DNA from: Escherichia phage bumzen
Direction: 5' to 3' (one strand)
Length of the DNA stretch: 64,000 bases
Sequence record: MN850635.1
How positions within the stretch are numbered: the first letter of the stretch is position 1; each line of letters opens with the position of its first letter. Positions 11,421 through 48,062 of this stretch are shown piece by piece. The position numbers and the translations under genes were made by a program. The notes under the pieces are model-generated. The model did not search any database, had not been told where the DNA came from, and was given only the letters and a program-made list of their open reading frames with translations.

Positions 11421-12767
11421 ATGAGTTCGAATATCTTCAGACTTGCTGATAGATTATTCAACCAACCTTTACTAGCCACTGAATCATTAGCTCACTCAGC
11501 AGCAACTTATGTGAATAACAGATTGCTGGGTGATGTCCAAGCAGCAGTAAACTTTGATAAACCCAAAGGTGACGCAAGAAGTCTTTTAAAAGTAAAAGAT
11601 GACATTGCTATTATCCCTATTATGGGTGGTTTAACCCATCGTATGACATTCATTGATGCAATGTGTACAGGTGGATTAAGCTCTTATGAGGGTTTACGTA
11701 GAGGCTTTGACGAAGCTTTAGCAGATGAGTCAATTAAGACTATTGTTCTGCATATTGATTCTGGTGGTGGTGAAGCTTCAGGTTGCTTTGAATTAGCACG
11801 TCACATCATGGCTTCAAGAGGCCAAAAGAAAATTATTGCTTATGTAGATGAGTTCGCTTGTTCCGCTGCATATGCTCTTGCATCTTCTGCTGAAGAAATT
11901 ATTGCATCACCAGATGCAGATGTTGGTTCTATTGGTGTAATCATGGTTCATCAGGAATTAACTAAGGCATTTGAAAAGAATGGCGTAACAATTAACGTCA
12001 TCAAAGCTGGTGAGTTTAAAGGTATGGGTTCACCATTCCAAGCACTTTCAGAAGAAAGCAAAGAAAGACTTCAAAAGAGAATTAATGATACCTACGCAAC
12101 CTTTACAGGTTTTGTAGCTGAATCTCGTAATCTCTCTGAAGAAGCTGTAAAGAATACTGAGGCGAATGTTTATTCTGCTCAGGAAGCTCTTGAACTTGGT
12201 TTAATTAACTCAATCATGTCTCAAGATGATTTCTTAAATTACTTACAAGGTTCTGAAGAGGCTCCTGTAAGTTTAAACGTTAACAATTCAGGTGAAGAAA
12301 TGACTGAACAAGAAAAGCAAGAACTAGAAGCTTTGCGTCTTCAGGTTGCTCAAATGAAAGCTAAAGAACAGGAAGCTGCTTTGTCAGATTTGACTAATAA
12401 GATTTCTGCTTCTGCTGAAGCTTTTGGGTTTGATGCAAAAGAAGCTGCAACGACTATTTTAGGTGCTGGTCTTGATAACCCTCTGAGTGTTCTGTTTATG
12501 AATGCTATGGAAGGTGCTAACCAGAAACTTAATGAAACTATCGCGTCCCATGCTTCTGCAATGGAAGAAAAAGAATCAGAAATTACCAAGCTGAAAGAAA
12601 CTGCTGGTGCTGTTCTTGAACATTCCAACGCTATGGAAGAAGTGGGTAATGACGGCGAAGCTGATTTGGTTGAAGAAGAAAAAGAACCAGCTAAAAATGC
12701 TTCCGAAGACACCGCTGAACAACGCAAACTGGCTCTCCAGAATGCTCTAAAATCTCTTATCAAATAA
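11421..12767 (+). CDS. prohead protease (S49/ClpP-like) fused to a scaffold-like helical domain
   Basis: 448 aa; motif LHIDSGGGEASG; C-terminal half rich in Ala/Glu/Lys/Gln. Confidence 0.7.
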   Translation: MSSNIFRLADRLFNQPLLATESLAHSAATYVNNRLLGDVQAAVNFDKPKGDARSLLKVKDDIAIIPIMGGLTHRMTFIDAMCTGGLSSYEGLRRGFDEALADESIKTIVLHIDSGGGEASGCFELARHIMASRGQKKIIAYVDEFACSAAYALASSAEEIIASPDADVGSIGVIMVHQELTKAFEKNGVTINVIKAGEFKGMGSPFQALSEESKERLQKRINDTYATFTGFVAESRNLSEEAVKNTEANVYSAQEALELGLINSIMSQDDFLNYLQGSEEAPVSLNVNNSGEEMTEQEKQELEALRLQVAQMKAKEQEAALSDLTNKISASAEAFGFDAKEAATTILGAGLDNPLSVLFMNAMEGANQKLNETIASHASAMEEKESEITKLKETAGAVLEHSNAMEEVGNDGEADLVEEEKEPAKNASEDTAEQRKLALQNALKSLIK

Positions 12768-12778
12768 GGAACACAATA

Positions 12779-13156
12779 ATGGCATATCAAGGTTTTACTA
12801 AGTTAGGTAACAGAGAACCTCTGAATGATATCATTCTTTGGGAACAGATTACCCCAACAGGCCACTCTCGTAAAGAGTACACTCCAGTTGCTTCAACAGA
12901 ATACCGTGTAGGTGAAGTTCTGAAAGCAGATGGTACTAAGGTACAAGCTGGAGAAGAAGCCCAAGCAGACTCTGTATGTATCGTTAACTTCTACGCAGAC
13001 CTACAACTATCTTATCATGGTCAGTTGAAAGTCGTTGGTATTTACCGTGACGCAGAACTAAAAGACCTGCTTACTCTTGAATCAGGTGTTGATGCTGATG
13101 CAGTCAAGACAGCTCTGGCTGCTAAAGGTATTGATTTCGTACCAACTGGCCTGTAA
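12779..13156 (+). CDS. head decoration-like protein (hypothetical)
   Basis: 125 aa ORF immediately upstream of the major capsid gene. Confidence 0.4.
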   Translation: MAYQGFTKLGNREPLNDIILWEQITPTGHSRKEYTPVASTEYRVGEVLKADGTKVQAGEEAQADSVCIVNFYADLQLSYHGQLKVVGIYRDAELKDLLTLESGVDADAVKTALAAKGIDFVPTGL

Positions 13157-13189
13157 TAACAATAATAAGACATTCTGGAGAATTTTACA

Positions 13190-14296
13190 ATGTTGACTAA
13201 TTCTGAAAAAAGCAGATTTTTCCTTGCTGACCTGACTGGTGAAGTCCAGTCTATCCCAAATACTTATGGGTATATTTCCAACTTAGGTCTGTTCCGTTCA
13301 GCACCAATCACCCAAACTACTTTCCTTATGGACTTGACTGATTGGGATGTTAGCTTGCTTGATGCGGTAGACCGTGATAGCCGTAAAGCAGAGACTAGCG
13401 CACCTGAGCGTGTTCGTCAAATCAGCTTCCCAATGATGTACTTCAAAGAAGTTGAAAGCATTACTCCTGATGAGATTCAGGGTGTACGTCAGCCAGGCAC
13501 TGCAAACGAACTGACTACTGAAGCTGTAGTACGTGCCAAGAAGCTGATGAAGATTCGTACCAAGTTTGATATTACTCGTGAGTTCCTGTTTATGCAAGCT
13601 CTGAAGGGTAAAGTTGTTGATGCTCGTGGTACTCTGTACGCTGACCTGTACAAACAGTTCGACGTTGAGAAGAAGACTATTTACTTCGACCTTGACAACC
13701 CTAATGCTGACATCGACGCTTCTATTGAAGAACTGCGTATGCACATGGAAGACGAAGCTAAGACTGGCACTGTAATCAACGGTGAAGAAATTCACGTAGT
13801 TGTTGACCGTGTATTCTTCAGCAAACTGACTAAGCACCCTAAGATTCGTGACGCCTATCTTGCACAGCAGACTCCACTGGCTTGGCAACAGATTACTGGT
13901 TCTCTGAGAACTGGTGGTACTGACGGCGTTCAGGCTCATATGAACACCTTCTACTACGGTGGTGTTAAGTTTGTCCAGTACAACGGTAAGTTCAAAGACA
14001 AGCGTGGTAAGGTTCACACTCTGGTGAGCATTGATAGTGTAGCAGACACTGTTGGTGTTGGTCATGCTTTCCCTAACGTATCTATGCTTGGTGAAGCTAA
14101 CAACATCTTCGAAGTTGCATACGGTCCATGTCCTAAGATGGGTTACGCAAATACACTTGGTCAGGAACTGTATGTATTCGAATACGAAAAAGACCGTGAC
14201 GAAGGTATTGACTTCGAAGCTCACTCTTACATGCTGCCATACTGTACTCGTCCTCAGTTGCTGGTAGATGTTCGCGCTGATGCTGAAGGCGAATAA
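13190..14296 (+). CDS. major capsid protein (HK97-like)
   Basis: 368 aa ORF after protease/scaffold with strong RBS context. Confidence 0.75.
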   Translation: MLTNSEKSRFFLADLTGEVQSIPNTYGYISNLGLFRSAPITQTTFLMDLTDWDVSLLDAVDRDSRKAETSAPERVRQISFPMMYFKEVESITPDEIQGVRQPGTANELTTEAVVRAKKLMKIRTKFDITREFLFMQALKGKVVDARGTLYADLYKQFDVEKKTIYFDLDNPNADIDASIEELRMHMEDEAKTGTVINGEEIHVVVDRVFFSKLTKHPKIRDAYLAQQTPLAWQQITGSLRTGGTDGVQAHMNTFYYGGVKFVQYNGKFKDKRGKVHTLVSIDSVADTVGVGHAFPNVSMLGEANNIFEVAYGPCPKMGYANTLGQELYVFEYEKDRDEGIDFEAHSYMLPYCTRPQLLVDVRADAEGE

Positions 14297-16221: not shown

Positions 16222-17574
16222 ATGTGGAATCCAATTGTTAATGTAGATATTACATTGAACACCGCAGGAACTACAAGAGAAGGTTTTGGTTTGCCACTAT
16301 TCTTAGCTTCAACAGATAACTTTGAAGAAAGAGTGCGTGGTTACACTTCCTTAACTGAAGTTGCTGAAGATTTCGATGAGAATACTGCTGCATATAAGGC
16401 TGCTAAACAACTTTGGAGTCAGACTCCTAAAGTAACTCAGCTTTATATCGGTAGACGCGCTATGCAGTACACTGTATCAATTCCTGATGCCGTTACCGAA
16501 AGTACAGACTACTCAATTACTGTAGCTGTTGGCGGTGGAATTTCTCAACCATACCAGTACACAGCACAAGATTCAGACACTGCTGAGGTAGTGTTGCAAC
16601 AGTTTAAAACACAGATTGAAGCTGACCCAACAATCAAAGATAAGGTTTCTGTGAATGTAACTGGTAGCAATGGCTCTGCCACAATGATTATTACCAAAGC
16701 TGGTGATAATGACTTTGTGAAAGTAACAACCACAGCACAGACTGTATATATTGCAAGTACAACTGCTGATACAGCAGCAACTGCTCTGGCAGCTATCGAA
16801 GCTTACTCTACTGACTGGTATTTCATTGCAGCAGAAGACAGAACTCAACAGTTTGTCTTAGCAATGGCTTCTGAGATTCAGGCTCGTAAGAAAATCTTCT
16901 TTACGGCTAACTCCGATGTAACAGCCCTACAAGGTACAGAATTAGCCAGTGCAAATGATGTTCCAGCACAGCTTGCTAAGAATATGTACACTCGTACAGT
17001 TTGCTTGTGGCATCACGCAGCAGCAGAAGATTATCCAGAGATGGCATACATTGCTTATGGTGCTCCATATGATGCAGGCTCAATTGCTTGGGGTAATGCT
17101 CAGCTAACTGGCGTAGCAGCTTCTCTACAACCATCTAATCAGAGACCTCTGACAAGTATTCAGAAGTCTGCTTTAGATGTACGTCACTGTAACTTTATTG
17201 ACCTTGATGGTGGTGTTCCAGTGGTTCGTAGAGGGATTACTTCTGGTGGGGAATGGATTGATATCGTCCGTGGTGTTGACTGGTTAGAATCAGACCTGAA
17301 AACTTCTCTGAGAGACTTGCTAATTAACCAGAAGGGTGGTAAGATTACTTATGATGATACTGGTATTACCCGTATTCGTCAAGTCATTGAAACCTCTCTG
17401 CAAAGAGCAGTCAACAGAAACTTCCTGTCATCTTACACAGTTAATGTTCCTAAAGCCTCTCAAGTTGCTTTAGCAGACAAGAAAGCACGTATCCTGAAAG
17501 ATGTTACCTTCGCAGGTATCTTAGCAGGGGCTATCTTGGATGTTGACTTGAAAGGTACAGTGGCTTACGAATAA
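16222..17574 (+). CDS. tail sheath protein
   Basis: 450 aa ORF in the Mu/P2-like order sheath, tube, chaperones, tape measure. Confidence 0.55.
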   Translation: MWNPIVNVDITLNTAGTTREGFGLPLFLASTDNFEERVRGYTSLTEVAEDFDENTAAYKAAKQLWSQTPKVTQLYIGRRAMQYTVSIPDAVTESTDYSITVAVGGGISQPYQYTAQDSDTAEVVLQQFKTQIEADPTIKDKVSVNVTGSNGSATMIITKAGDNDFVKVTTTAQTVYIASTTADTAATALAAIEAYSTDWYFIAAEDRTQQFVLAMASEIQARKKIFFTANSDVTALQGTELASANDVPAQLAKNMYTRTVCLWHHAAAEDYPEMAYIAYGAPYDAGSIAWGNAQLTGVAASLQPSNQRPLTSIQKSALDVRHCNFIDLDGGVPVVRRGITSGGEWIDIVRGVDWLESDLKTSLRDLLINQKGGKITYDDTGITRIRQVIETSLQRAVNRNFLSSYTVNVPKASQVALADKKARILKDVTFAGILAGAILDVDLKGTVAYE

Positions 17575-17589
17575 TAGAGGTAAATTGGA

Positions 17590-18036
17590 ATGGCTATGTA
17601 TCAGCAATATTCCCCTAAAGACGTTGTATGTAGCTGGAACGGCATTGCTATTGAAGGCTTTGCTCCAGACTCATTCTTGCGTCTACAGAGAACATCACCA
17701 CTTGTGACACCAGTTGTTGGTGCAGGTGGTCAGGTTGCTCTGACACGAAATGCAGACAAGACAGGTACTATTGAGATTGAGCTAATGCAGACTTCTCTCT
17801 CTAACCAGATGCTTTCTGCAATTCAAGCTAAACAAGACAATATGGAACTTGAAGAAGATATCTCTTCTAACTTCGTAATCTACGACCCATCAGGCTCTGT
17901 TCTGGCAACTGGTATTAACGCTTGGTTGCAGGAGTTACCACAGATTGAACTTGGTCGTGACCAGAACTCTAAAACTTGGATTTTTGGTTGTGAGAAGTTA
18001 GACTACACTTCTACAATTCCAGCGTCAAGTGTTTAA
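17590..18036 (+). CDS. tail tube protein
   Basis: 148 aa ORF directly after the sheath; followed by a strong terminator. Confidence 0.55.
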   Translation: MAMYQQYSPKDVVCSWNGIAIEGFAPDSFLRLQRTSPLVTPVVGAGGQVALTRNADKTGTIEIELMQTSLSNQMLSAIQAKQDNMELEEDISSNFVIYDPSGSVLATGINAWLQELPQIELGRDQNSKTWIFGCEKLDYTSTIPASSV

Positions 18037-18749: not shown

Positions 18750-26747
<7,998 letters not shown>

Positions 26748-34944: not shown

Positions 34945-34985
34945 AAGACCTTTTAAAAAGGAGCCTCCGAAGAGGCTACCTAGTC
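34945..34985 (-). terminator. rho-independent terminator on the - strand
   Basis: - strand reads GCCTC-TTCG-GAGGC followed by TCCTTTTT; directly downstream of the CDS ending at 34989. Confidence 0.6.
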
Positions 34986-34988
34986 AAC

Positions 34989-35429
34989 TTAGAAAGGTTT
35001 TCTACGTTGCTTGTTAATGTTAGCTTTCATAGCAGCTAAATGGTTTTGCTGTTCAATCAGTCGTGAACGTTCTTGATGACTAAGCGCCATAGTGTTCACA
35101 TTCTCAATTGCTTGAGTGGCTTGCTTTAAAGCTCGACCAATCTTACCAGACATTTTGCGTTTTGCAATAGTTGCTTGATGCTTAGGTTCAACCACACGAT
35201 AACCAACACCCATTGAAGCAACCAGATAAATCTTCTCTTCTTTAAGAAGCTTTTCAATAAACTTCTCAAGTCGGTTTAGACGTGTAAGTGCATAAGCCTT
35301 CATTTCATCTTCGTACTTAACAATGTCACCTTGATAAGTTGGCTTCACAATACCTAAGAAGGTATCCATCTCGGAATGTGATACAGTGTCGCCGTAACTA
35401 AACTTTGCTGCTAATGCTTTTGTATTCAT
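34989..35429 (-). CDS. hypothetical protein (cassette gene 2)
   Basis: 146 aa, basic C-terminus; flanked by the two repeat regions. Confidence 0.5.
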   Translation of the reverse strand: MNTKALAAKFSYGDTVSHSEMDTFLGIVKPTYQGDIVKYEDEMKAYALTRLNRLEKFIEKLLKEEKIYLVASMGVGYRVVEPKHQATIAKRKMSGKIGRALKQATQAIENVNTMALSHQERSRLIEQQNHLAAMKANINKQRRKPF

Positions 35430-35431
35430 AA

Positions 35432-36573
<1,142 letters not shown>

Positions 36574-39510: not shown

Positions 39511-42210
39511 TCAATGTACCTCATACCAGCTCTTACCAACCTTTGCTGTACCAGTTACAAGTGTTTCTTTCCTCAAACCTAAGTTTTTTGAAGCTTGTCC
39601 ATACATCCAGTCAGCAATTGCTTTCATATCATGTGTCATACCCTCTGGACATTCCCAACTATTTTCATCGTGATATGCCAGAAGTAACCTTGCTCCGATA
39701 GCTGGTTTTCGAGCATTCAGTTTTGTCAGGCCATCTTCACAGGCTTTTCTTGCTGCTAGGTTGATGGCCTCATTCTGAATCTGTGCTTCCGAACTCATCA
39801 GGAGGTAGTTCAGTAGTTTATGTGGAGATTTGCACCATATCCATGCTCCAGCGACCCTGATATAACCACCTTTAGCAATTGAAGAATTCTTCCCAAAAAC
39901 CTCTTCCAGAGCCTTTTTAGACGCCTTAAAATCGGCTTCTAAACTATCAAGTAACTTCTTAATCTTTGGCAGACGCATATAGTAAGTTTGTTTAGTCAAT
40001 GCACCTTCTTCCGTAGATGATGCCTTGATAGTTTTTGCAAACTTCTCGTCTCCGGCTCCAAATAACAGGGCGTAGATGCCATTTTTGCTCTTCTTACGGC
40101 CTTTTGTAATCTCGTGAAGAAGTTCCTCATCCTGTGTCTCCCTACAACGAACAATATCTTCTTCCTTGTTCAGACCAAAGTAAATACTGTTCAGTGTATG
40201 CGCATCAGTCCCTGTGTAGACTTCATAGAGGTCGTTCTCAGCATCATAACGAAGATACTTGTCAGTTTCTGGATTAAGATACTTATCGAGATGCTTGCAA
40301 TAGTATCTGCCATCCTCTTGCTTAGTGAACTCTACTGACTCTTTACCCTCAGTTACCGCTTTAGTGAAGTCTTCATCACCCATAAAGTTACAAAGAAGAA
40401 CTAGCTGTGCAGAGTTCTGGTCAACTGAAACGATATTAGTACCTTCCTCGCAAATCCAAACCTCCCTCATAGGTGCTCCATAGACAGCAGCACCAGACGG
40501 TACGTTTACAATACCATATTGTGTCATACGTCCAGTTGAAGTACCAAACACCATTGCACCAGCACTAAGGCGACCATCAGGACGAATCTGGTTCAACCAA
40601 CCTTTTTCATCATCCTTTGAGTTCTCAATAGTTCTGCGTCTGTGCATCAAAGTATAGTACTTAGCAATCTTCTGTCCAAGCTCACCTTCAATCGTATCAT
40701 AAGATGACTCAGTAAGTTTTGGTGAAGTACGGATTAAGCAAGGCTCAAGCAAATCTGTGTATTTCTTCACAGACCAGTTATGCTCAATGTACTGGACACC
40801 TTCATGTTCAACATAACTTAAACCACATCGTTCCACCATCTCCTGCCACTTAGGATGTTTTGTAATCATCTTTTTATTGTCTTTGAAACGACAAACTTTG
40901 ACAGGGCGACCGTCTGAGTCTTTCTTGTAGTTCCAGTCATCTGGAATCCAACCAACTGATTTCAAGTAGTCTTTAACAACTGCTACCTGAGTCATACGAG
41001 AAACTTCAAACTCAATTGGTGTATATGGTGCATCAATCAAACCTGTGTAGCGACTTGACTCAAGTTCAAAGTGGTTAACAACGTGGCTGTTATAGTACTT
41101 CACAGTTTTGACTGTTTTTACTGGCTTCCAGTCTTTGCATTTCTTACCAATCTTTGCATTCAACTCATTGCAAATTGCACGAGCATCCTTCATTGCTACA
41201 AAACCTTCCTTGTACTCTTCACCAGTTACAGAGTTGGTTGGTGTATAGCAATTCCTTTTTTCAATGTTAAAAATCTTTGTAGTTGGCTTACCAAATGGCT
41301 TGATTTCATATGTCTGCATCTCACCGTTACGTACCTGCTGACGGTACTTCGTCTTAGGGTACTTGGTAATTCTCTTCAGTCCATCTGCATGACCAAATGT
41401 TTCAACATACTCATTCCAAGCCCTTGCAAACTCTTCTCCAGTGACTTTACCTTTGGTCTTAATAGTTGGAGGAAGATGTGGTTCAACCTCTGAAGCAAGC
41501 TCATTAGTCAACTTGTCAAGTTCCTTTACATGGAACTCCATAAGCTCTTTGTCAGCTTTCCAACCATTGATAGCTTGCTGGCTCATCCAGAAAGATGTCT
41601 CTTTAGCTCGCATGTAGGTTTCATAAGTGTCTATGCCACACTTCTTAAGCTTGAGATACTCATTATCAAGTGCCCGTTTAGTTTTGGCGTTAATACGGAT
41701 ATCTTCTACAACACGAGTGAAGATTTCTGCATTCCACACACCCCAATGCTCAATCTCTGGCTTACGAACACCAACACGAGCACCCCATGCAGCCAAGCCA
41801 TGAGCACCTTTATAACCCTTTGGGGTTGGTCTATCCATCCACTGAACACGAGACTGGATAAGAGAGTCCTGAAAGAAATTACTCCACGGTTTACACTTTG
41901 GATTATCAAAGTTCCATAAATCAGGTGCAATGTGATTGAAAACCCACCAGTCATAACCGAGACCATTATGGATGCAAAGACGTTTTGCCTTTAACGCAAA
42001 TTCAACACCTTCACGTAAACCACCTTTGATGTACTTGGTATACTTGTGACCGAGGATAGGCTCATCTGTAAAGACCCATACAGGTGGCTCTTCATCGTCA
42101 GATTTATAGTCTGCGAAAGCCATTACGTGCACTTTAGTGAACTCAAGGAGTAAACCATCAGTTTCTGTATCACCAACCAAATGTAAGTTTTTAAAATCTA
42201 CGTTTTCCAT
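39511..42210 (-). CDS. DNA polymerase, family A, with 3'-5' exonuclease domain
   Basis: Start set to MENVDF, which follows a GAGGGAG RBS on the - strand; exo motif GDTETDG; about 900 aa. Confidence 0.85.
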   Translation of the reverse strand: MENVDFKNLHLVGDTETDGLLLEFTKVHVMAFADYKSDDEEPPVWVFTDEPILGHKYTKYIKGGLREGVEFALKAKRLCIHNGLGYDWWVFNHIAPDLWNFDNPKCKPWSNFFQDSLIQSRVQWMDRPTPKGYKGAHGLAAWGARVGVRKPEIEHWGVWNAEIFTRVVEDIRINAKTKRALDNEYLKLKKCGIDTYETYMRAKETSFWMSQQAINGWKADKELMEFHVKELDKLTNELASEVEPHLPPTIKTKGKVTGEEFARAWNEYVETFGHADGLKRITKYPKTKYRQQVRNGEMQTYEIKPFGKPTTKIFNIEKRNCYTPTNSVTGEEYKEGFVAMKDARAICNELNAKIGKKCKDWKPVKTVKTVKYYNSHVVNHFELESSRYTGLIDAPYTPIEFEVSRMTQVAVVKDYLKSVGWIPDDWNYKKDSDGRPVKVCRFKDNKKMITKHPKWQEMVERCGLSYVEHEGVQYIEHNWSVKKYTDLLEPCLIRTSPKLTESSYDTIEGELGQKIAKYYTLMHRRRTIENSKDDEKGWLNQIRPDGRLSAGAMVFGTSTGRMTQYGIVNVPSGAAVYGAPMREVWICEEGTNIVSVDQNSAQLVLLCNFMGDEDFTKAVTEGKESVEFTKQEDGRYYCKHLDKYLNPETDKYLRYDAENDLYEVYTGTDAHTLNSIYFGLNKEEDIVRCRETQDEELLHEITKGRKKSKNGIYALLFGAGDEKFAKTIKASSTEEGALTKQTYYMRLPKIKKLLDSLEADFKASKKALEEVFGKNSSIAKGGYIRVAGAWIWCKSPHKLLNYLLMSSEAQIQNEAINLAARKACEDGLTKLNARKPAIGARLLLAYHDENSWECPEGMTHDMKAIADWMYGQASKNLGLRKETLVTGTAKVGKSWYEVH

Positions 42211-42381
42211 TTTTACTCCCTCTAAAATCATTAACCTCATACATTACTGCAAAAAATTATAAAAAGCAAGTTGACAATGCACTTGACAAGGTGTTAATCT
42301 TTGCGAAGTGGGTTTTTACTTAAAAGGTTACTTAACAGTTTAACTATACAGATACTTTAAAACTCTTAAAAGATTATTTAA

Positions 42382-42423
42382 TAGCTTTTAAAAAGCTTTA
42401 AAGTATAACGTATAGAATACGTT
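42382..42423. promoter_or_regulatory. palindromic operator-like sites in the divergent intergenic region
   Basis: AGCTTTTAAAAAGCT (42382-42396) and AACGTATAGAATACGTT (42407-42423), between divergent gene blocks. Confidence 0.35.
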
Positions 42424-42467
42424 AAGATAAAAGATTAAAACTTAATAGTTACTTAAAAGAGGCTTAC

Positions 42468-42890
42468 ATGCAGAAAATGTTTGTTCACCCAGACATAGCT
42501 GACTTTGTTAGAGCTTTGCAGAAGTTGGAAGAACTTGACATTGCTGCTCAACGGGAATATGCTCACCATCACAGGAGAATGGTTGATATACAACATGAAA
42601 TAGAGTTATCTGAAAACTATGAAGATGACTTAAAATGCTCTGTGTTTGAGCATATGAAAGATGTTGCTACAGCGAGACGTAAAGCTAAAGACACAGTTGC
42701 TTTACTAGACTCTCTTAAAAAGAGGTTGCAAAGTGGTACAGACCTGTGTAATCTAGCGTCACTGATTAACGATGTTGAAACTTCTTGGGATAGGCACTAT
42801 TATCCACGTTCTGAAAAGACACTTGACTTTTCTTCATCCGAAAACTTAAAATGTTCTAGAAAGAAACTTAACCAACTGAGAGAGAAATAA
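42468..42890 (+). CDS. hypothetical protein
   Basis: 140 aa ORF, first gene of the + strand block. Confidence 0.45.
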   Translation: MQKMFVHPDIADFVRALQKLEELDIAAQREYAHHHRRMVDIQHEIELSENYEDDLKCSVFEHMKDVATARRKAKDTVALLDSLKKRLQSGTDLCNLASLINDVETSWDRHYYPRSEKTLDFSSSENLKCSRKKLNQLREK

Positions 42891-42891
42891 T

Positions 42892-43692
42892 ATGAATATC
42901 GATGTAGAAAAGATGCTTGAAGAAAAAGGTATTGACGAAGCATTTTTAATCAATGCCGTAGAAAGCATGGCTATGATTCTTCGTGGGAACAACTACACAG
43001 AACAGTTTATGCCTTCAAGCTATAACTTGCCTGAAGACAAGTCTGATAATGGTGCTTTTGCAGAACAGGTTAACATGATGTTGACAGACACTACACTTGC
43101 TTTAGCATCTATAGTCGTAGGTGTTGATGCTCTTGCAGAGTTCATTTTTAAGGAGATGCAGAAAAATGACTATATCTCCCTTAACTCTGAAGAAAAGGAC
43201 TTATTACTGTCATTAGGTAATAATGAGTTAATTTCCATGATAATTTCATCAACAAGTGCTGTTATGGCTGCTCTTGAGAAGCGAATGGGAGAGAAGCTGT
43301 CACGATATGAAAAACTTGATTGGGGGGTAGAAGAACTAAACCCACGAATCCAAGAAATTATCCAGCAAACCAAAGATTCTTTGGAAGAAGCTGTTGAAAA
43401 TGACTCTGTAGCTGATATAGAACCACTTCAGGTGAAAGTTGCACTGATGATTCCAGCTATCTCTACGATGATGAATATCGTTGCACTAATCCAACTTTCA
43501 CAGATGATGGGTGTAAGTATTGAGTTCATTGAGGAGATGACTGGTGGCGTTAGTATGCAAGCCATCAATGATGTTTTGGTGAACATTGGTGCTTCAATCA
43601 TTGAAGAAAAACTACGCATTAACTTCGGTGATGATTTTGTGAAGCAAATCTCAGCTATGGCTGAAAAAGAGTATGCTGACCAACTGCACTAA
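42892..43692 (+). CDS. hypothetical protein
   Basis: 266 aa ORF, start adjacent to the upstream stop. Confidence 0.45.
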   Translation: MNIDVEKMLEEKGIDEAFLINAVESMAMILRGNNYTEQFMPSSYNLPEDKSDNGAFAEQVNMMLTDTTLALASIVVGVDALAEFIFKEMQKNDYISLNSEEKDLLLSLGNNELISMIISSTSAVMAALEKRMGEKLSRYEKLDWGVEELNPRIQEIIQQTKDSLEEAVENDSVADIEPLQVKVALMIPAISTMMNIVALIQLSQMMGVSIEFIEEMTGGVSMQAINDVLVNIGASIIEEKLRINFGDDFVKQISAMAEKEYADQLH

Positions 43693-43710
43693 GTCTTTAT
43701 AAATCTTACA

Positions 43711-43734
43711 AGCCTCCTTAGTTGGGGGCTTTTT
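43711..43734 (+). terminator. rho-independent terminator candidate
   Basis: AGCCTCC-ttagtt-GGGGGCT followed by TTTTT. Confidence 0.5.
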
Positions 43735-43753
43735 AGTAATTAAGGGAGATAAA

Positions 43754-47093: not shown

Positions 47094-47122
47094 TTGACAA
47101 TAGGGTATCAACAAACTAGAAT
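47094..47122 (+). promoter_or_regulatory. sigma70-like promoter candidate
   Basis: TTGACA (47094-47099), 17-nt spacer, TAGAAT (47117-47122). Confidence 0.5.
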
Positions 47123-47158: not shown

Positions 47159-48016
47159 ATGTCTAAAGTTGTTAAAATGAAAGCTCCGGTAGAGAAGTAC
47201 AACGGTACTGAACGTCAAACTCTGCGTTACCTGCTGAAAGATGTCTGGTTTTATTACCTGAACACTTCACCACGTCCGGGGAAAGGTAAGTCTATTGATA
47301 AGAAATTCCCAGGCAAAGACTGTAACTACAGCGTATCAATTCTGGCAGAAGACGGTAACAAACTCTTTAAAGAGTTTACTAAGTCTAAGAAGAACCCAGA
47401 AGGTTGGGATAAAGTTACTACTGAAGCAGTTGATGCAGATGACTTCGAAGAGAAGTTTGGTTGTAAACCACCTTTTGAAGCAGACACTTACTACATCTTG
47501 AAAGTAAGTCGTGCAGCAGCTTATAAAGATGGTGCTGTATGGACAGCTAAACAGTCATTCCCTGTAATGCTGATTGAAGAAGTAAATGGTAAGCGTGTAG
47601 CTGTTAAGCAGCCGATGAAGAAAATCAAAGCTCAAGCATCTGATAAACATGAAGATGACAAGAACTATGATGTAATTCATCCAGATATCGCAGTTGGTAA
47701 TGGTTCTTTTGGTAGTGTGATTCTTTCTACTCACTTCTACACTTTTGAGAACAATGTTCTGACAAAACCTATTCAGGAACAGTTTATCATTGATACTCTT
47801 GTACCTTACACTGGTGGTAACGGTGCTAATGGTGAACCTGAACTTGATGAAGATGAACTGGCTATGCTTGGTCTTGATGGTGTTGAAGATAACGGTGAAA
47901 TCACTGAAGAAGACGCAACAGACCATAAACCTTCGAATGCTTCTGATGATGGTGATGATGAAGATTTGCCAGACCCAGATGACGAAGAAGATGAAGACTT
48001 CGATACAGAAGACTAA
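47159..48016 (+). CDS. single-stranded DNA-binding protein-like, acidic C-terminal tail
   Basis: 285 aa; C-terminus DDGDDEDLPDPDDEEDEDFDTED. Confidence 0.45.
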   Translation: MSKVVKMKAPVEKYNGTERQTLRYLLKDVWFYYLNTSPRPGKGKSIDKKFPGKDCNYSVSILAEDGNKLFKEFTKSKKNPEGWDKVTTEAVDADDFEEKFGCKPPFEADTYYILKVSRAAAYKDGAVWTAKQSFPVMLIEEVNGKRVAVKQPMKKIKAQASDKHEDDKNYDVIHPDIAVGNGSFGSVILSTHFYTFENNVLTKPIQEQFIIDTLVPYTGGNGANGEPELDEDELAMLGLDGVEDNGEITEEDATDHKPSNASDDGDDEDLPDPDDEEDEDFDTED

Positions 48017-48034
48017 TCTCTAAAAGTTACTTTA

Positions 48035-48062
48035 AAGCCCTGTACTTAGTATGGGGCTTTTT
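48035..48062 (+). terminator. rho-independent terminator candidate
   Basis: AAGCCC-tgtacttagtat-GGGGCTT followed by TTTT. Confidence 0.5.

What the first reader, a model, noticed from the sequence alone, without database searches (positions are those of the whole stretch)
42240..42467. Divergent intergenic region with two near-perfect palindromes
Seen: between the - strand polymerase gene and the + strand replication genes lie AGCTTTTAAAAAGCT (42382-42396) and AACGTATAGAATACGTT (42407-42423), plus tandem TTGACA boxes at 42271 and 42283. Inference: binding sites for dimeric regulators coordinating divergent transcription.
Basis: seen in the sequence. Interest (0 to 1): 0.35.

Follow-up and report, generated by a model that had tools for sequence, protein, structure and literature searches.

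The report
Phage early-promoter region with phased 8-mers
The two palindromes are real but ordinary parts of a strongly conserved control region of a Felix O1-like phage, whose more notable content is a conserved host-type promoter followed by about a dozen evenly spaced copies of an 8-base word of unknown function.

Summary
The window is a Felix O1-like phage (Felixounavirus). The interval is the 257-bp gap between the DNA polymerase gene (true start 42210, minus strand) and a 140-aa gene (42468, plus strand).

- **Observation:** Palindrome 1 lies at 42383-42397, one base off.
- **Chance:** the palindromes are not beyond chance for this A+T-rich DNA. Two or more such repeats arise in 4.9% of composition-matched shuffles.
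- **Position:** they lie 77-119 nt downstream of the likely rightward start, not between the divergent promoters.
- **Conservation:** 42261-42467 is 81-98% identical across three genera, where third codon positions are 40-63%. Palindrome 2 is kept by two compensatory double changes. It is lost in more distant genera, which keep only its TATAGAAT core.

Three stronger features emerged.
1. TTGACA box 1 pairs with TGtTAATCT as an extended -10 promoter. Its position is conserved across the subfamily, and a near-identical copy sits at Felix O1's other divergent junction.
2. CTTwAnAG words run on one strand with an 11-bp period, 7 copies against 0.27 expected. This is the least stable duplex in the genome.
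3. The same words fill the terminal-repeat region.

Function is unproven. I favour a phased protein-binding array controlling early transcription. Rivals are a promoter-coupled replication origin and a leader-RNA element.

The parts
42208..42222 (-). DNA polymerase start codon (ATG ending at 42210) and Shine-Dalgarno GAGGGAG (42216-42222)
   Evidence: Read directly. Suspvirus and Mooglevirus records annotate the equivalent start. The alignment is conserved up to about 42224 and then drops. The Felix O1 records use 42231 or 42240 instead.
42241..42269 (-). Candidate leftward (polymerase) promoter: -35 TTGCTT (42269->42264), 17-bp spacer, -10 TAATGT (42246->42241)
   Evidence: Inference from conservation. 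AAAAAGCAAG is invariant, and the T-A---T positions of TA[AG][TG]GT are kept in three genera with a constant 17-bp spacer. The match to consensus is weak, and it fell below the threshold of my own promoter scan. Back-to-back leftward promoters are predicted at the same relative place in Erwinia phage W25 and in Arno162.
42271..42276 (+). TTGACA box 1, the -35 element of rightward promoter P1
   Evidence: TTGACA followed 17-18 bp later by a TAnnnT hexamer occurs at -178 to -198 from the downstream ATG in all 9 lineages scanned. A TG extension precedes the hexamer in 7 of the 9, but not in the two Kolesnikvirus phages. A related record annotates this site as a promoter.
42283..42288 (+). TTGACA box 2, 12 bp downstream of box 1 and inside the P1 spacer
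   Evidence: Unchanged in the 9- and 18-sequence alignments of three genera. No usable -10 lies 16-18 bp downstream, where the sequence is AAGTGG. The 23-nt tandem core recurs only once more in Felix O1, at the gene 40/41 junction. Its role is unknown.
42292..42300 (+). Extended -10 of P1: TG-t-TAATCT, with a predicted start near 42306-42307
   Evidence: TGnTA[AG]T[CG]T is kept in Felixounavirus, Suspvirus, Mooglevirus and Yersinia phage P778, and TGcTAGGCT in Arno162. The simple consensus scan did not list it, because only 3 of 6 hexamer positions match. The start site is inferred, not mapped.
42313..42460 (+). A+T-rich array of same-strand 8-mers CTTwAnAG. Strict copies lie at 42319, 42331, 42344, 42365, 42396, 42441 and 42452. 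Degenerate copies lie at 42355, 42377 and 42385.
   Evidence: There are 7 copies against 0.27 in shuffles, and this is the only cluster in the window. Word positions 1, 2, 3, 5, 7 and 8 are conserved, while positions 4 and 6 and the spacers vary. The array is enriched in 8 lineages and has a period of 11.0 bp. It is the least stable and most A+T-rich 100-150 bp of the window and of the Felix O1 genome.
42383..42397 (.). Palindrome 1, AGCTTTTAAAAAGCT. It is formed where degenerate words abut (TTTAATAG | CTTTTAAAAAG | CTTTAAAG). As an RNA hairpin it could extend to 42377-42402.
   Evidence: Four of 6 pairs never vary. One pair changes U-A to U-G in 3 sequences, and one pair is broken in 2. The folding energy of this segment is no better than shuffles (z=-0.7).
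42406..42424 (.).
   Evidence: Two pairs changed on both sides (A-T to T-A in 9 of 18 sequences, C-G to T-A in 4 of 18). None of the inner 7 pairs is ever broken. The local hairpin has z=-3.8. It is absent as a palindrome in the more distant relatives.
42413..42418 (+). TAGAAT, a -10-like hexamer in the centre of palindrome 2 and a possible secondary promoter P2
   Evidence: The core (T)ATAGAAT or TATAAT persists at -55 to -80 from the ATG in Felixounavirus, Suspvirus, Arno162, P778 and Kolesnikvirus. Mooglevirus has TAACAT. No good -35 is present; the best is TTAAAA with a 19-bp spacer. This is inference only.
42343..42369 (-). Alternative leftward promoter annotated in a related record (TTAAGA-N15-TATAGT)
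   Evidence: This is the annotation of phage vB_EcoM_ASO1A. The -10 TATAGT (42348->42343) is invariant in three genera. The -35 is poor.
42457..42890 (+). Shine-Dalgarno AAGAGG (42457-42462) and the 140-aa ORF (42468-42890), first gene of the rightward replication operon
   Evidence: The protein is conserved across Ounavirinae, belongs to PHROG 4039 of unknown function and has no Pfam match. Its model is a long helical hairpin with mean pLDDT 71.

Best explanation
The interval is the control region of the early replication genes of a Felix O1-like phage.

**Shown or well supported**
- The gap carries a host sigma-70-type rightward promoter P1: box 1 TTGACA at 42271, an 18-bp spacer, then TG-t-TAATCT.
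- Its position is conserved across the subfamily.
- A near-identical copy sits at the phage's other divergent junction.

**Inferred**
- A weak leftward polymerase promoter lies back-to-back with P1 at 42241-42269.
- P1 starts transcription near 42306-42307.

From about +12 of P1 to the ribosome-binding site of the 140-aa gene runs a 150-bp stretch of about 80% A+T. It is built from copies of the 8-mer CTTwAnAG, all on one strand, about 11 bp apart.

The two palindromes are pieces of this array, not free-standing operators between the promoters. Palindrome 1 arises where words abut. Palindrome 2 is a clade-specific inverted repeat around a more widely conserved TATAGAAT core.

The mechanism I think most likely is inferred, not shown. 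The array would be a multi-site platform on one face of the DNA for a sequence-specific protein, phage or host, not yet identified. That protein would control rightward early transcription just downstream of P1, as a roadblock or shut-off, or by acting on a secondary start at TAGAAT. Palindrome 2 would serve at most as an accessory dimer site or hairpin.
For: - **Identity of the phage:**
- **Purifying selection:** 42261-42312 is 90-98% identical and 42313-42467 is 81-83% identical to Suspvirus and Mooglevirus. Third codon positions of the flanking genes are 40-63% identical.
- **P1:** position conserved in 9 lineages. A paralogous 23-nt core lies at Felix O1 21514-21536, followed by its own word-bearing leader.
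- **Word array:** 7 copies against 0.27 expected, and it is the only cluster in the window.
- **Out-of-sample test:** the array is also enriched in five distant lineages from which the pattern was not derived (p<=0.003 each).
- **Pattern of variation:** six word positions are fixed, while positions 4 and 6 and the spacers vary. This is the pattern expected of a recognised motif.
- **Spacing:** the best period is 11.0 bp, and 0 of 3000 random placements reach the observed phasing.
- **Same words elsewhere:** CTTAACA words are concentrated in the untranslated terminal-repeat region beyond transcription terminators. That region holds 16 of 51 genome occurrences in 1.9% of the genome. Related TGTTAAGA words fill the equivalent gap of phiEa104. 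This favours recognition on DNA.
- **Palindrome 2:** two compensatory changes.
- **Exclusions:** no Rfam family, tRNA, terminator or small ORF in the gap.
Against: - No binding protein is identified. The neighbouring 140-aa protein has no DNA-binding fold.
- The promoters and start sites are predictions. The -10 of P1 matches only 3 of 6 consensus positions, and the simple scan missed it.
- In both leaders and in both halves of the terminal-repeat region, the words lie in the sense orientation relative to the nearest incoming transcription. This would fit an RNA-level element equally well.
- RNAalifold independently predicts both palindromes as leader hairpins.
- A-tract phasing is high but not extreme, in the top 0.5-2.6% of windows.
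- An 11-bp period can also come simply from tandem 11-12-nt units.
- The word pattern was defined from this window, so its enrichment here is partly circular. The test in the distant lineages is not.
Confidence: 0.35

Rival explanations
1. Promoter-coupled replication origin. P1 would transcribe into an easily unwound A+T-rich element. The transcript or the opened duplex would let the T7-like primase-helicase and polymerase start replication. The phased 8-mers would act as iteron-like sites. This is the design of the T7 primary origin and of T4 oriF/oriG, as I recall them; that knowledge was not checked here.
For: - The array is the least stable 100- and 150-bp duplex of the window and of the whole Felix O1 genome (-105 kcal/mol against a mean of -128 with sd 5).
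- A conserved promoter points into it.
- It sits between the family-A polymerase gene and the operon with the dNMP kinase, primase-helicase and exonuclease genes.
- The GC skew changes sign here.
- The direct repeats are phased near the helical repeat.
- A second copy of the module is compatible, since several phages have more than one origin.
Against: - The skew change coincides with the change of gene orientation, so it adds nothing.
- No initiator is identified.
- The words run right up to the ribosome-binding site.
- The same module precedes gene 41, which heads the tRNA and structural-gene direction rather than replication genes.
- T7 and T4 origins of this type do not need iterons, as far as I recall.
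- There are no replication data for any Ounavirinae in the literature searched.
Confidence: 0.25
2. Leader-RNA element. The about 160-nt 5' leader made from P1 would carry two small hairpins (extended palindrome 1 and palindrome 2) and repeated single-stranded CUUwAnAG words. These would be bound or cut by a protein that sets mRNA stability, translation of the 140-aa gene, or read-through of the operon's many terminators. Candidates are RNase E-type processing and an antitermination-type factor.
For: - All strict words are on the transcribed sense strand. They start about 12 nt after the predicted start and end at the Shine-Dalgarno sequence.
- The sense orientation also holds at the gene-41 leader and in both halves of the terminal region.
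- RNAalifold predicts both hairpins.
- Palindrome 2 shows compensatory changes.
- The only variation in the inner stem of palindrome 1 is U-A to U-G, which keeps pairing on the plus-strand RNA only. It is seen in Suspvirus and separately in one Felixounavirus.
- The Felix O1 paper notes that read-through of its many terminators is unexplained (PMC3185647).
Against: - The whole-leader fold is not better than shuffles (z=-1.76, 11 of 200 shuffles fold as well).
- The covariation term is small (-0.8 kcal/mol).
- No Rfam match was found.
- The canonical BoxA 12-mer finds no plus-strand match in the gap at up to 3 mismatches.
- The arrays in the terminal-repeat region lie beyond intrinsic terminators, with no gene to regulate.
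- The hairpins are not conserved in the more distant relatives.
Confidence: 0.2
3. The two long palindromes would be operators for dimeric regulators that coordinate the two divergent promoters.
For: - Both palindromes have two-fold symmetry.
- Both are conserved in Felixounavirus, and largely so in Suspvirus and Mooglevirus.
- Both half-sites of palindrome 2 change together, as expected if a dimer's specificity drifts.
- Palindrome 2 is centred on a -10-like TAGAAT.
Against: - The palindromes lie 77-119 nt downstream of the P1 start and about 140-180 bp from the likely polymerase promoter, so they do not overlap either core promoter.
- They are not beyond chance.
- Palindrome 1 loses symmetry through single changes in Suspvirus, one Felixounavirus and Sf13-like phages.
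- Neither palindrome recurs elsewhere in the window.
- The paralogous module at gene 40/41 carries a different inverted repeat.
- No helix-turn-helix gene lies nearby.
Confidence: 0.1
4. No specific recognition at all. The stretch would be only an A+T-rich spacer full of stop codons, whose composition generates 8-mer look-alikes and palindromes.
For: The palindromes are within chance for this composition. Similar words also occur singly next to terminators elsewhere in the window.
Against: - Composition-matched shuffles give 0.1-0.3 words where 2-7 are seen, in 8 lineages.
- Fixed and variable positions alternate within the word.
- The region is far more conserved than silent sites.
- The phasing is non-random.
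Confidence: 0.08

Closest known systems
Extended -10 sigma-70 promoters of virulent coliphages (host-RNA-polymerase early promoters)
   Same: It has a consensus TTGACA -35, a TGn motif one base upstream of a TAnnnT hexamer and a 17-18-bp spacer. It heads an early operon of a phage that encodes no RNA polymerase of its own (PMC3185647).
   Different: The -10 hexamer is weak (TAATCT). A second, equally conserved TTGACAA box sits inside the spacer and has no known role. The start site is unmapped.
Promoter plus unwinding-element origins (T7 primary origin; T4 oriF/oriG). My own knowledge, not checked here.
   Same: A promoter fires into the most easily melted DNA of the genome, next to T7-like polymerase and primase-helicase genes.
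   Different: Those origins have no phased 8-mer array. Here the module is duplicated in front of a non-replication operon. No replication data exist.
Iteron arrays of phage and plasmid origins (lambda ori, SPP1 oriL/oriR). My own knowledge.
   Same: It has direct repeats in one orientation, phased near the helical repeat, next to A+T-rich DNA, in more than one copy per genome.
   Different: The units are only 8 bp at 11-13-bp spacing, against the 17-22 bp typical of iterons. No initiator gene was recognised. The array lies in a transcribed leader.
Palindromic operators between divergent promoters (lambda OR type)
   Same: It is a divergent intergenic region with inverted repeats of 7-8-bp arms.
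   Different: The repeats do not overlap either core promoter. They are single-copy and of different sequence, not above chance, and no repressor gene is adjacent.
Short-repeat arrays flanking the T7 terminal repetition (CCTAAAG-type). Recalled from Dunn and Studier 1983; not verified with the tools.
   Same: An A+T-rich 7-8-mer of similar form (C-T/C-T-A-A-A-G) is repeated many times around the terminal repeat of a genome with direct terminal repeats.
   Different: In Felix O1-like phages the same word family also forms the leaders behind two early promoters. The function of the T7 arrays is itself unsettled.

Membership tests
Sigma-70 promoter, extended -10 class (P1) | -35 hexamer close to TTGACA | tested here: met
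   TTGACA lies at 42271-42276 and is conserved in all lineages scanned.
Sigma-70 promoter, extended -10 class (P1) | TG one base upstream of a -10 hexamer with A at position 2 and T at position 6, and a spacer of 17 +/- 1 | tested here: met
   TG-t-TAATCT lies at 42292-42300 with an 18-bp spacer. The hexamer matches only 3 of 6 positions, but the key T, A and T are present and conserved. The generic scan did not list it.
Sigma-70 promoter, extended -10 class (P1) | Transcription start mapped 6-8 nt downstream | not testable with these tools
   No transcript-end data for any Ounavirinae were found in the literature searched.
Palindromic operator of a dimeric regulator | Two-fold symmetric site | tested here: met
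   There are 7-bp and 8-bp perfect arms.
Palindromic operator of a dimeric regulator | Site overlaps or abuts the core promoter it controls | tested here: not met
   The palindromes lie at +77 to +119 from the P1 start and more than 135 bp from the candidate polymerase promoter. Only a weak -10-like TAGAAT lies within palindrome 2.
Palindromic operator of a dimeric regulator | Symmetry conserved in relatives | tested here: inconclusive
   Palindrome 2 is kept with two compensatory changes in three genera. Palindrome 1 is partly broken. Neither is kept in the more distant relatives.
Palindromic operator of a dimeric regulator | Cognate DNA-binding regulator encoded nearby | tested here: not met
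   The adjacent proteins have no Pfam DNA-binding domain. The 140-aa protein models as a helical hairpin, and its fold matches are generic.
Replication origin of promoter + unwinding-element or iteron type | Promoter directed into the least stable A+T-rich DNA | tested here: met
   This is the least stable 100- and 150-bp stretch of the window and of the Felix O1 genome, downstream of P1.
Replication origin of promoter + unwinding-element or iteron type | Phased direct repeats | tested here: met
   The period is 11.0 bp, and 0 of 3000 random placements reach the observed phasing.
Replication origin of promoter + unwinding-element or iteron type | Replication starts there, and an initiator binds the repeats | not testable with these tools
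   No data exist and no initiator was recognised.
Intrinsic terminator or attenuator | G+C-rich hairpin followed by a T run | tested here: not met
   The scan found 0 terminator-like sites in 41900-42900. Neither palindrome is followed by a T run.
Any described RNA family (Rfam 15) | Covariance-model match | tested here: not met
   The best E-values were 3.5-4.9, far below the gathering scores. No tRNA or tmRNA was found.
BoxA antitermination element | GCUCUUUAACAA-like 12-mer in the leader | tested here: not met
   No plus-strand match with up to 3 mismatches lies in 42300-42467. The resemblance is closer in phiEa104 (CCTCTTAACAG) and at Felix O1 12519-12545, by eye only.

The most novel reading that the evidence does not exclude
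The 8-mer CTTwAnAG / CTTAACAR would be the recognition word of one still unknown factor in Felix O1-like phages. That factor would tie together three places. Two are the leaders behind the tandem-TTGACA early promoters at the genome's two divergent junctions. The third is the terminal-repeat region. For example, promoter-coupled origins or polar transcription or replication control sites could be shared with the genome ends.
Probability: 0.2. Interest if true: 0.65.

Novelty: new variant of a known kind. Interest (0 to 1): 0.4.

Why it matters
Felix O1 is a classic Salmonella typing and biocontrol phage. Its transcription programme and replication origin are unknown. Its genome paper found no promoter in this gap and left temporal control and terminator read-through unexplained (PMC3185647).

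This analysis gives concrete, testable elements:
- a conserved extended -10 promoter with an odd second TTGACAA box;
- a candidate polymerase promoter;
- a phased word array shared with a second junction and with the genome ends.

If the words prove to be binding sites of one factor, they would mark the phage's early control circuit or its origin. They would also be useful for engineering these phages. The palindromes on their own are of minor interest.

Tried and rejected
- **Tandem Repeats Finder** found nothing in 42200-42500. The array is too degenerate.
- **Rfam, ARAGORN, the terminator scan and a small-ORF list** found nothing in the gap.
- **Whole-leader RNA folds** are not significant on either strand (z=-1.76 and +0.95).
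- **Palindromes as a subfamily-wide feature** were rejected. The best inverted repeat per leader in 7 lineages gives a combined p of 0.26.
- **The 140-aa neighbour as the binding protein.** It has no Pfam match, a PHROG of unknown function, no PDB sequence match, a helical-hairpin model and only generic fold hits.
- **GC skew as origin evidence** was rejected, because it is confounded with gene orientation.
- **BoxA identity.** The 12-mer is not matched in this gap.
- **Strong intrinsic curvature.** AAA phasing is in the top 0.5-2.6% of windows but is not the maximum.
- **IMG/VR scan for three adjacent words.** It returned the Ounavirinae loci plus many unrelated perfect tandem repeats. These are expected from the design of the pattern and are uninformative.
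- **Other readings by eye.** T4 MotA-box geometry, the T4 late-promoter motif and an N4-type hairpin promoter were considered and dropped. The spacing does not fit, or the required phage factors are not reported for Felix O1.
- **Literature.** No transcript maps, origin data or description of this gap exist beyond predicted promoters. A search to verify the T7 terminal short repeats found nothing usable.

Full report
**What the window is.** A 3-kb query around the finding matches about 260 phage records. The best are Escherichia and Salmonella Felixounavirus at 96-98.5% identity, including Felix O1 itself. The 330 bases upstream of the 140-aa gene's start are identical to Felix O1. The interval separates the family-A DNA polymerase gene (minus strand) from a rightward operon. 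That operon encodes a 140-aa protein, a 266-aa protein, dNMP kinase, a T7-type primase-helicase and an exonuclease. The Felix O1 genome paper assumed divergent early promoters here, between genes 96 and 97, but reported finding no recognisable promoter (PMC3185647). One related record annotates two predicted promoters in the gap.

**The observation.** All four features are present.
- Palindrome 2 is at 42407-42423 and extends to 8-bp arms at 42406-42424.
- The TTGACA boxes are at 42271 and 42283.
- The polymerase start is best placed at 42210, behind GAGGGAG. Suspvirus and Mooglevirus records annotate it there, and the alignment is conserved only up to that ribosome-binding site. The gap is therefore 42211-42467.

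**Are the palindromes more than chance?** Barely.
- The window has 34 perfect inverted repeats with arms of at least 7 and a loop of at most 4, against about 23 in shuffles.
- Shuffles of the gap that keep dinucleotide content yield two or more in 4.9% of trials and one or more in 29%.
- I repeated the test on the homologous leaders of seven independent lineages, asking whether the best inverted repeat exceeds shuffles. The combined p was 0.26.
- Inverted repeats occur in every lineage at roughly the same place. Their sequences differ, and they are no more frequent than this composition predicts.

**Conservation.**
- Across Felixounavirus, Suspvirus and Mooglevirus the gap aligns with 90% column identity.
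- Against each of the other two genera, 42261-42312 is 90-98% identical and 42313-42467 is 81-83% identical.
- Third codon positions of the flanking genes are only 40-63% identical.
- The part next to the polymerase gene (42211-42260) is the least conserved.
- From 42261 onward the gap is therefore under strong purifying selection.
- Within palindrome 2, two base pairs changed on both sides: A-T to T-A in 9 of 18 sequences, and C-G to T-A in 4 of 18. None of the seven inner pairs is ever broken. These represent about two evolutionary events.
- In palindrome 1, four of six pairs never vary. One changes U-A to U-G in three sequences, apparently twice independently. One is broken in two sequences.
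- In the more distant relatives neither palindrome survives. These are Yersinia phage P778, Kolesnikvirus, Pectobacterium phage Arno162 and metagenome lineages at 46-57% protein identity. What persists at the position of palindrome 2 is a core TATAGAAT or TATAAT.

**Promoters.** A scan tolerant of weak hexamers gave one result common to all nine lineages. TTGACA is followed 17-18 bp later by a TAnnnT hexamer, 178-198 nt upstream of the 140-aa gene. A TG extension precedes the hexamer in all but the two Kolesnikvirus phages.
- In the window this is box 1 (42271) plus TG-t-TAATCT (42292-42300), with a predicted start near 42306-42307.
- Box 2 lies inside the spacer and has no usable -10 downstream. 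It is nevertheless unchanged in the aligned sequences of three genera.
- The 23-nt core GTTGACAAnGCACTTGACAAGGT occurs exactly twice in Felix O1: here and at the gene 40/41 divergent junction. There it is again followed by a leader with the same words, a different inverted repeat, and a ribosome-binding site.
- For the polymerase, the best candidate by conservation is TTGCTT (42269->42264), 17 bp, TAATGT (42246->42241), back-to-back with P1. The match to consensus is weak and the call is an inference.
- An alternative -10, TATAGT at 42348->42343, is also invariant.
- With these assignments the palindromes lie 77-119 nt downstream of the rightward start, not between the promoters.

**The word array.** The main content of 42313-42460 is a series of same-strand 8-mers: CTTAAAAG, CTTAACAG, CTATACAG, CTTTAAAG, CTTAATAG and degenerate copies.
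- Seven strict copies occur where composition-matched shuffles give 0.27. No other cluster exists in the 64-kb window.
- In the alignment, word positions 1, 2, 3, 5, 7 and 8 are fixed. Positions 4 and 6 and the spacers vary.
- The pattern was defined on this window. It is also enriched in five distant lineages from which it was not derived (2-4 copies against 0.1-0.2 expected, p<=0.003 each).
- Word positions are phased with a best period of 11.0 bp, and none of 3000 random placements reaches the observed statistic.
- The stretch is the most A+T-rich and least stable 100-150 bp of the window and of the whole Felix O1 genome.
- Palindrome 1 is where degenerate words abut (TTTAATAG-CTTTTAAAAAG-CTTTAAAG). 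The word is itself nearly symmetric (CTT..AAG), which explains why inverted repeats are common here.

**The same words elsewhere.** Outside the window, Felix O1 12,300-13,930 is a 1.6-kb untranslated gap between convergent operons. It holds 16 of the genome's 51 CTTAACA occurrences in 1.9% of its length, often at 11-13-bp spacing. The left part carries them in one orientation and the right part in the other.
- Many GenBank records of relatives begin or end inside this gap. This fits the 608-bp direct terminal repeat reported for a related phage (PMC4837284).
- phiEa104 has an equivalent gap full of TGTTAAGA words.
- Single words also flank intrinsic terminators at 43,690-43,735 and 48,015-48,062 in the window.
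- An ordinary internal promoter at 47,094 has no word leader.

**Weighing mechanisms.**
- *For recognition on DNA:* the phasing near the helical repeat, and the arrays in the terminal region, which lie beyond terminators and have no gene to regulate.
- *For an RNA-level role:* the strict sense orientation of the words behind both promoters, their extent from about +12 to the ribosome-binding site, the two hairpins predicted by RNAalifold, and the plus-strand-only U-G variant.
- *Against an RNA-level role:* the leader fold is not significant (z=-1.76), there is no Rfam match, and the BoxA 12-mer is not matched here.
- *For an origin:* the least stable DNA of the genome lies downstream of a conserved promoter, between polymerase and primase-helicase genes.
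- *Against an origin:* the skew switch is confounded with gene orientation, the module is duplicated in front of a non-replication operon, and no initiator is seen.
- The adjacent 140-aa protein gave no help. It has no family with a known function, models as a helical hairpin (mean pLDDT 71), and has only generic fold matches.

**Verdict.** The region is regulatory and box 1 is a real promoter element by conservation. The palindromes, however, are minor, clade-specific parts of a larger and previously undescribed phased word array in the leader, not operators sitting between the divergent promoters.

My estimates for the mechanism are:

| Reading | Estimate |
|---|---|
| Protein-binding array on DNA controlling early rightward transcription | about 0.35 |
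| Promoter-coupled replication origin | about 0.25 |
| Leader-RNA element | about 0.2 |
| No specific recognition | under 0.1 |

None can be settled without transcript-end mapping, footprinting and origin mapping.

Noticed in passing
window 42208-42240: The polymerase start codon is annotated inconsistently among public records, at the equivalents of 42210, 42231 and 42240. Conservation and the GAGGGAG ribosome-binding site favour 42210.
   Followed up: partly
L161 (Felix O1 NC_005282) 12300-13930, outside the window: A 1.6-kb untranslated gap lies between convergent operons. It is packed with CTTAACA / CTGTTAAG / CTTGTTAG / CTATATAG words in two opposed orientation blocks. Many relatives' GenBank records start or end inside it, so it probably contains the direct terminal repeat.
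   Followed up: partly
L161 21495-21668 (Felix O1 gene 40/41 junction, just left of the window start): This is a paralogous copy of the promoter module. GTTGACAAAGCACTTGACAAGGT is followed by a leader of about 100 nt with CTTAAAAG-type words and an inverted repeat AGATATC-N6-GATATCT. It and the pol-gap copy are the only matches to the 23-nt core found in Felix O1 1-43,000 and in this window.
   Followed up: partly
L182 (phiEa104) 16485-16520 and 16471-17901: A tandem TTGACA pair (TTGACATTCTACTTGACAGGGGCTAAAGT) sits at the left edge of phiEa104's own untranslated gap. That gap is filled with CTTCTAA(A/G) words on the left and TGTTAAGA words on the right.
   Followed up: no
window 42892-43692: The 266-aa gene in the replication operon is labelled 'minor tail protein' in many records and in PHROG 4251. 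It has no Pfam match, sits among early replication genes, and is absent at this place in Yersinia phage P778. The label looks doubtful.
   Followed up: no
window 43690-43735 and 48015-48062: Single or paired words (CTTTATAA, CTTACAAG; CTCTAAAAG, CTTTAAAG) lie immediately upstream of intrinsic-terminator hairpins. The 57-bp direct repeats reported in the Felix O1 paper also hold such words around a hairpin.
   Followed up: no
L011/L012/L015 about 465-962 (Kolesnikvirus): An HNH homing endonuclease gene is inserted between the polymerase gene and the control region in Erwinia and Hafnia phages. Those phages also carry a second strong promoter (TTGACT-18-TGgTATGAT) just upstream of the 140-aa gene.
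   Followed up: no
window 34980-36040: The accessory ORFs on the minus strand here (146 aa and 200 aa) differ from the Felix O1 genes at the corresponding place. The window's phage is therefore mosaic relative to Felix O1 in this block.
   Followed up: no
window 42352-42406: A longer imperfect inverted repeat (27-nt arms, 78% complementary, centred at 42379) spans palindrome 1. As single-stranded DNA the 63-nt segment folds better than shuffles (z=-3.2).
   Followed up: partly
L050, L051, L063, L072, L134 (unrelated IMG/VR contigs): Perfect 11-13-bp tandem repeats containing CTTAAAAG or CTTAATAG lie just upstream of genes or promoters in unrelated viral contigs. They were found by a pattern that demands three adjacent words, so the resemblance may be an artefact of the search.
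   Followed up: no
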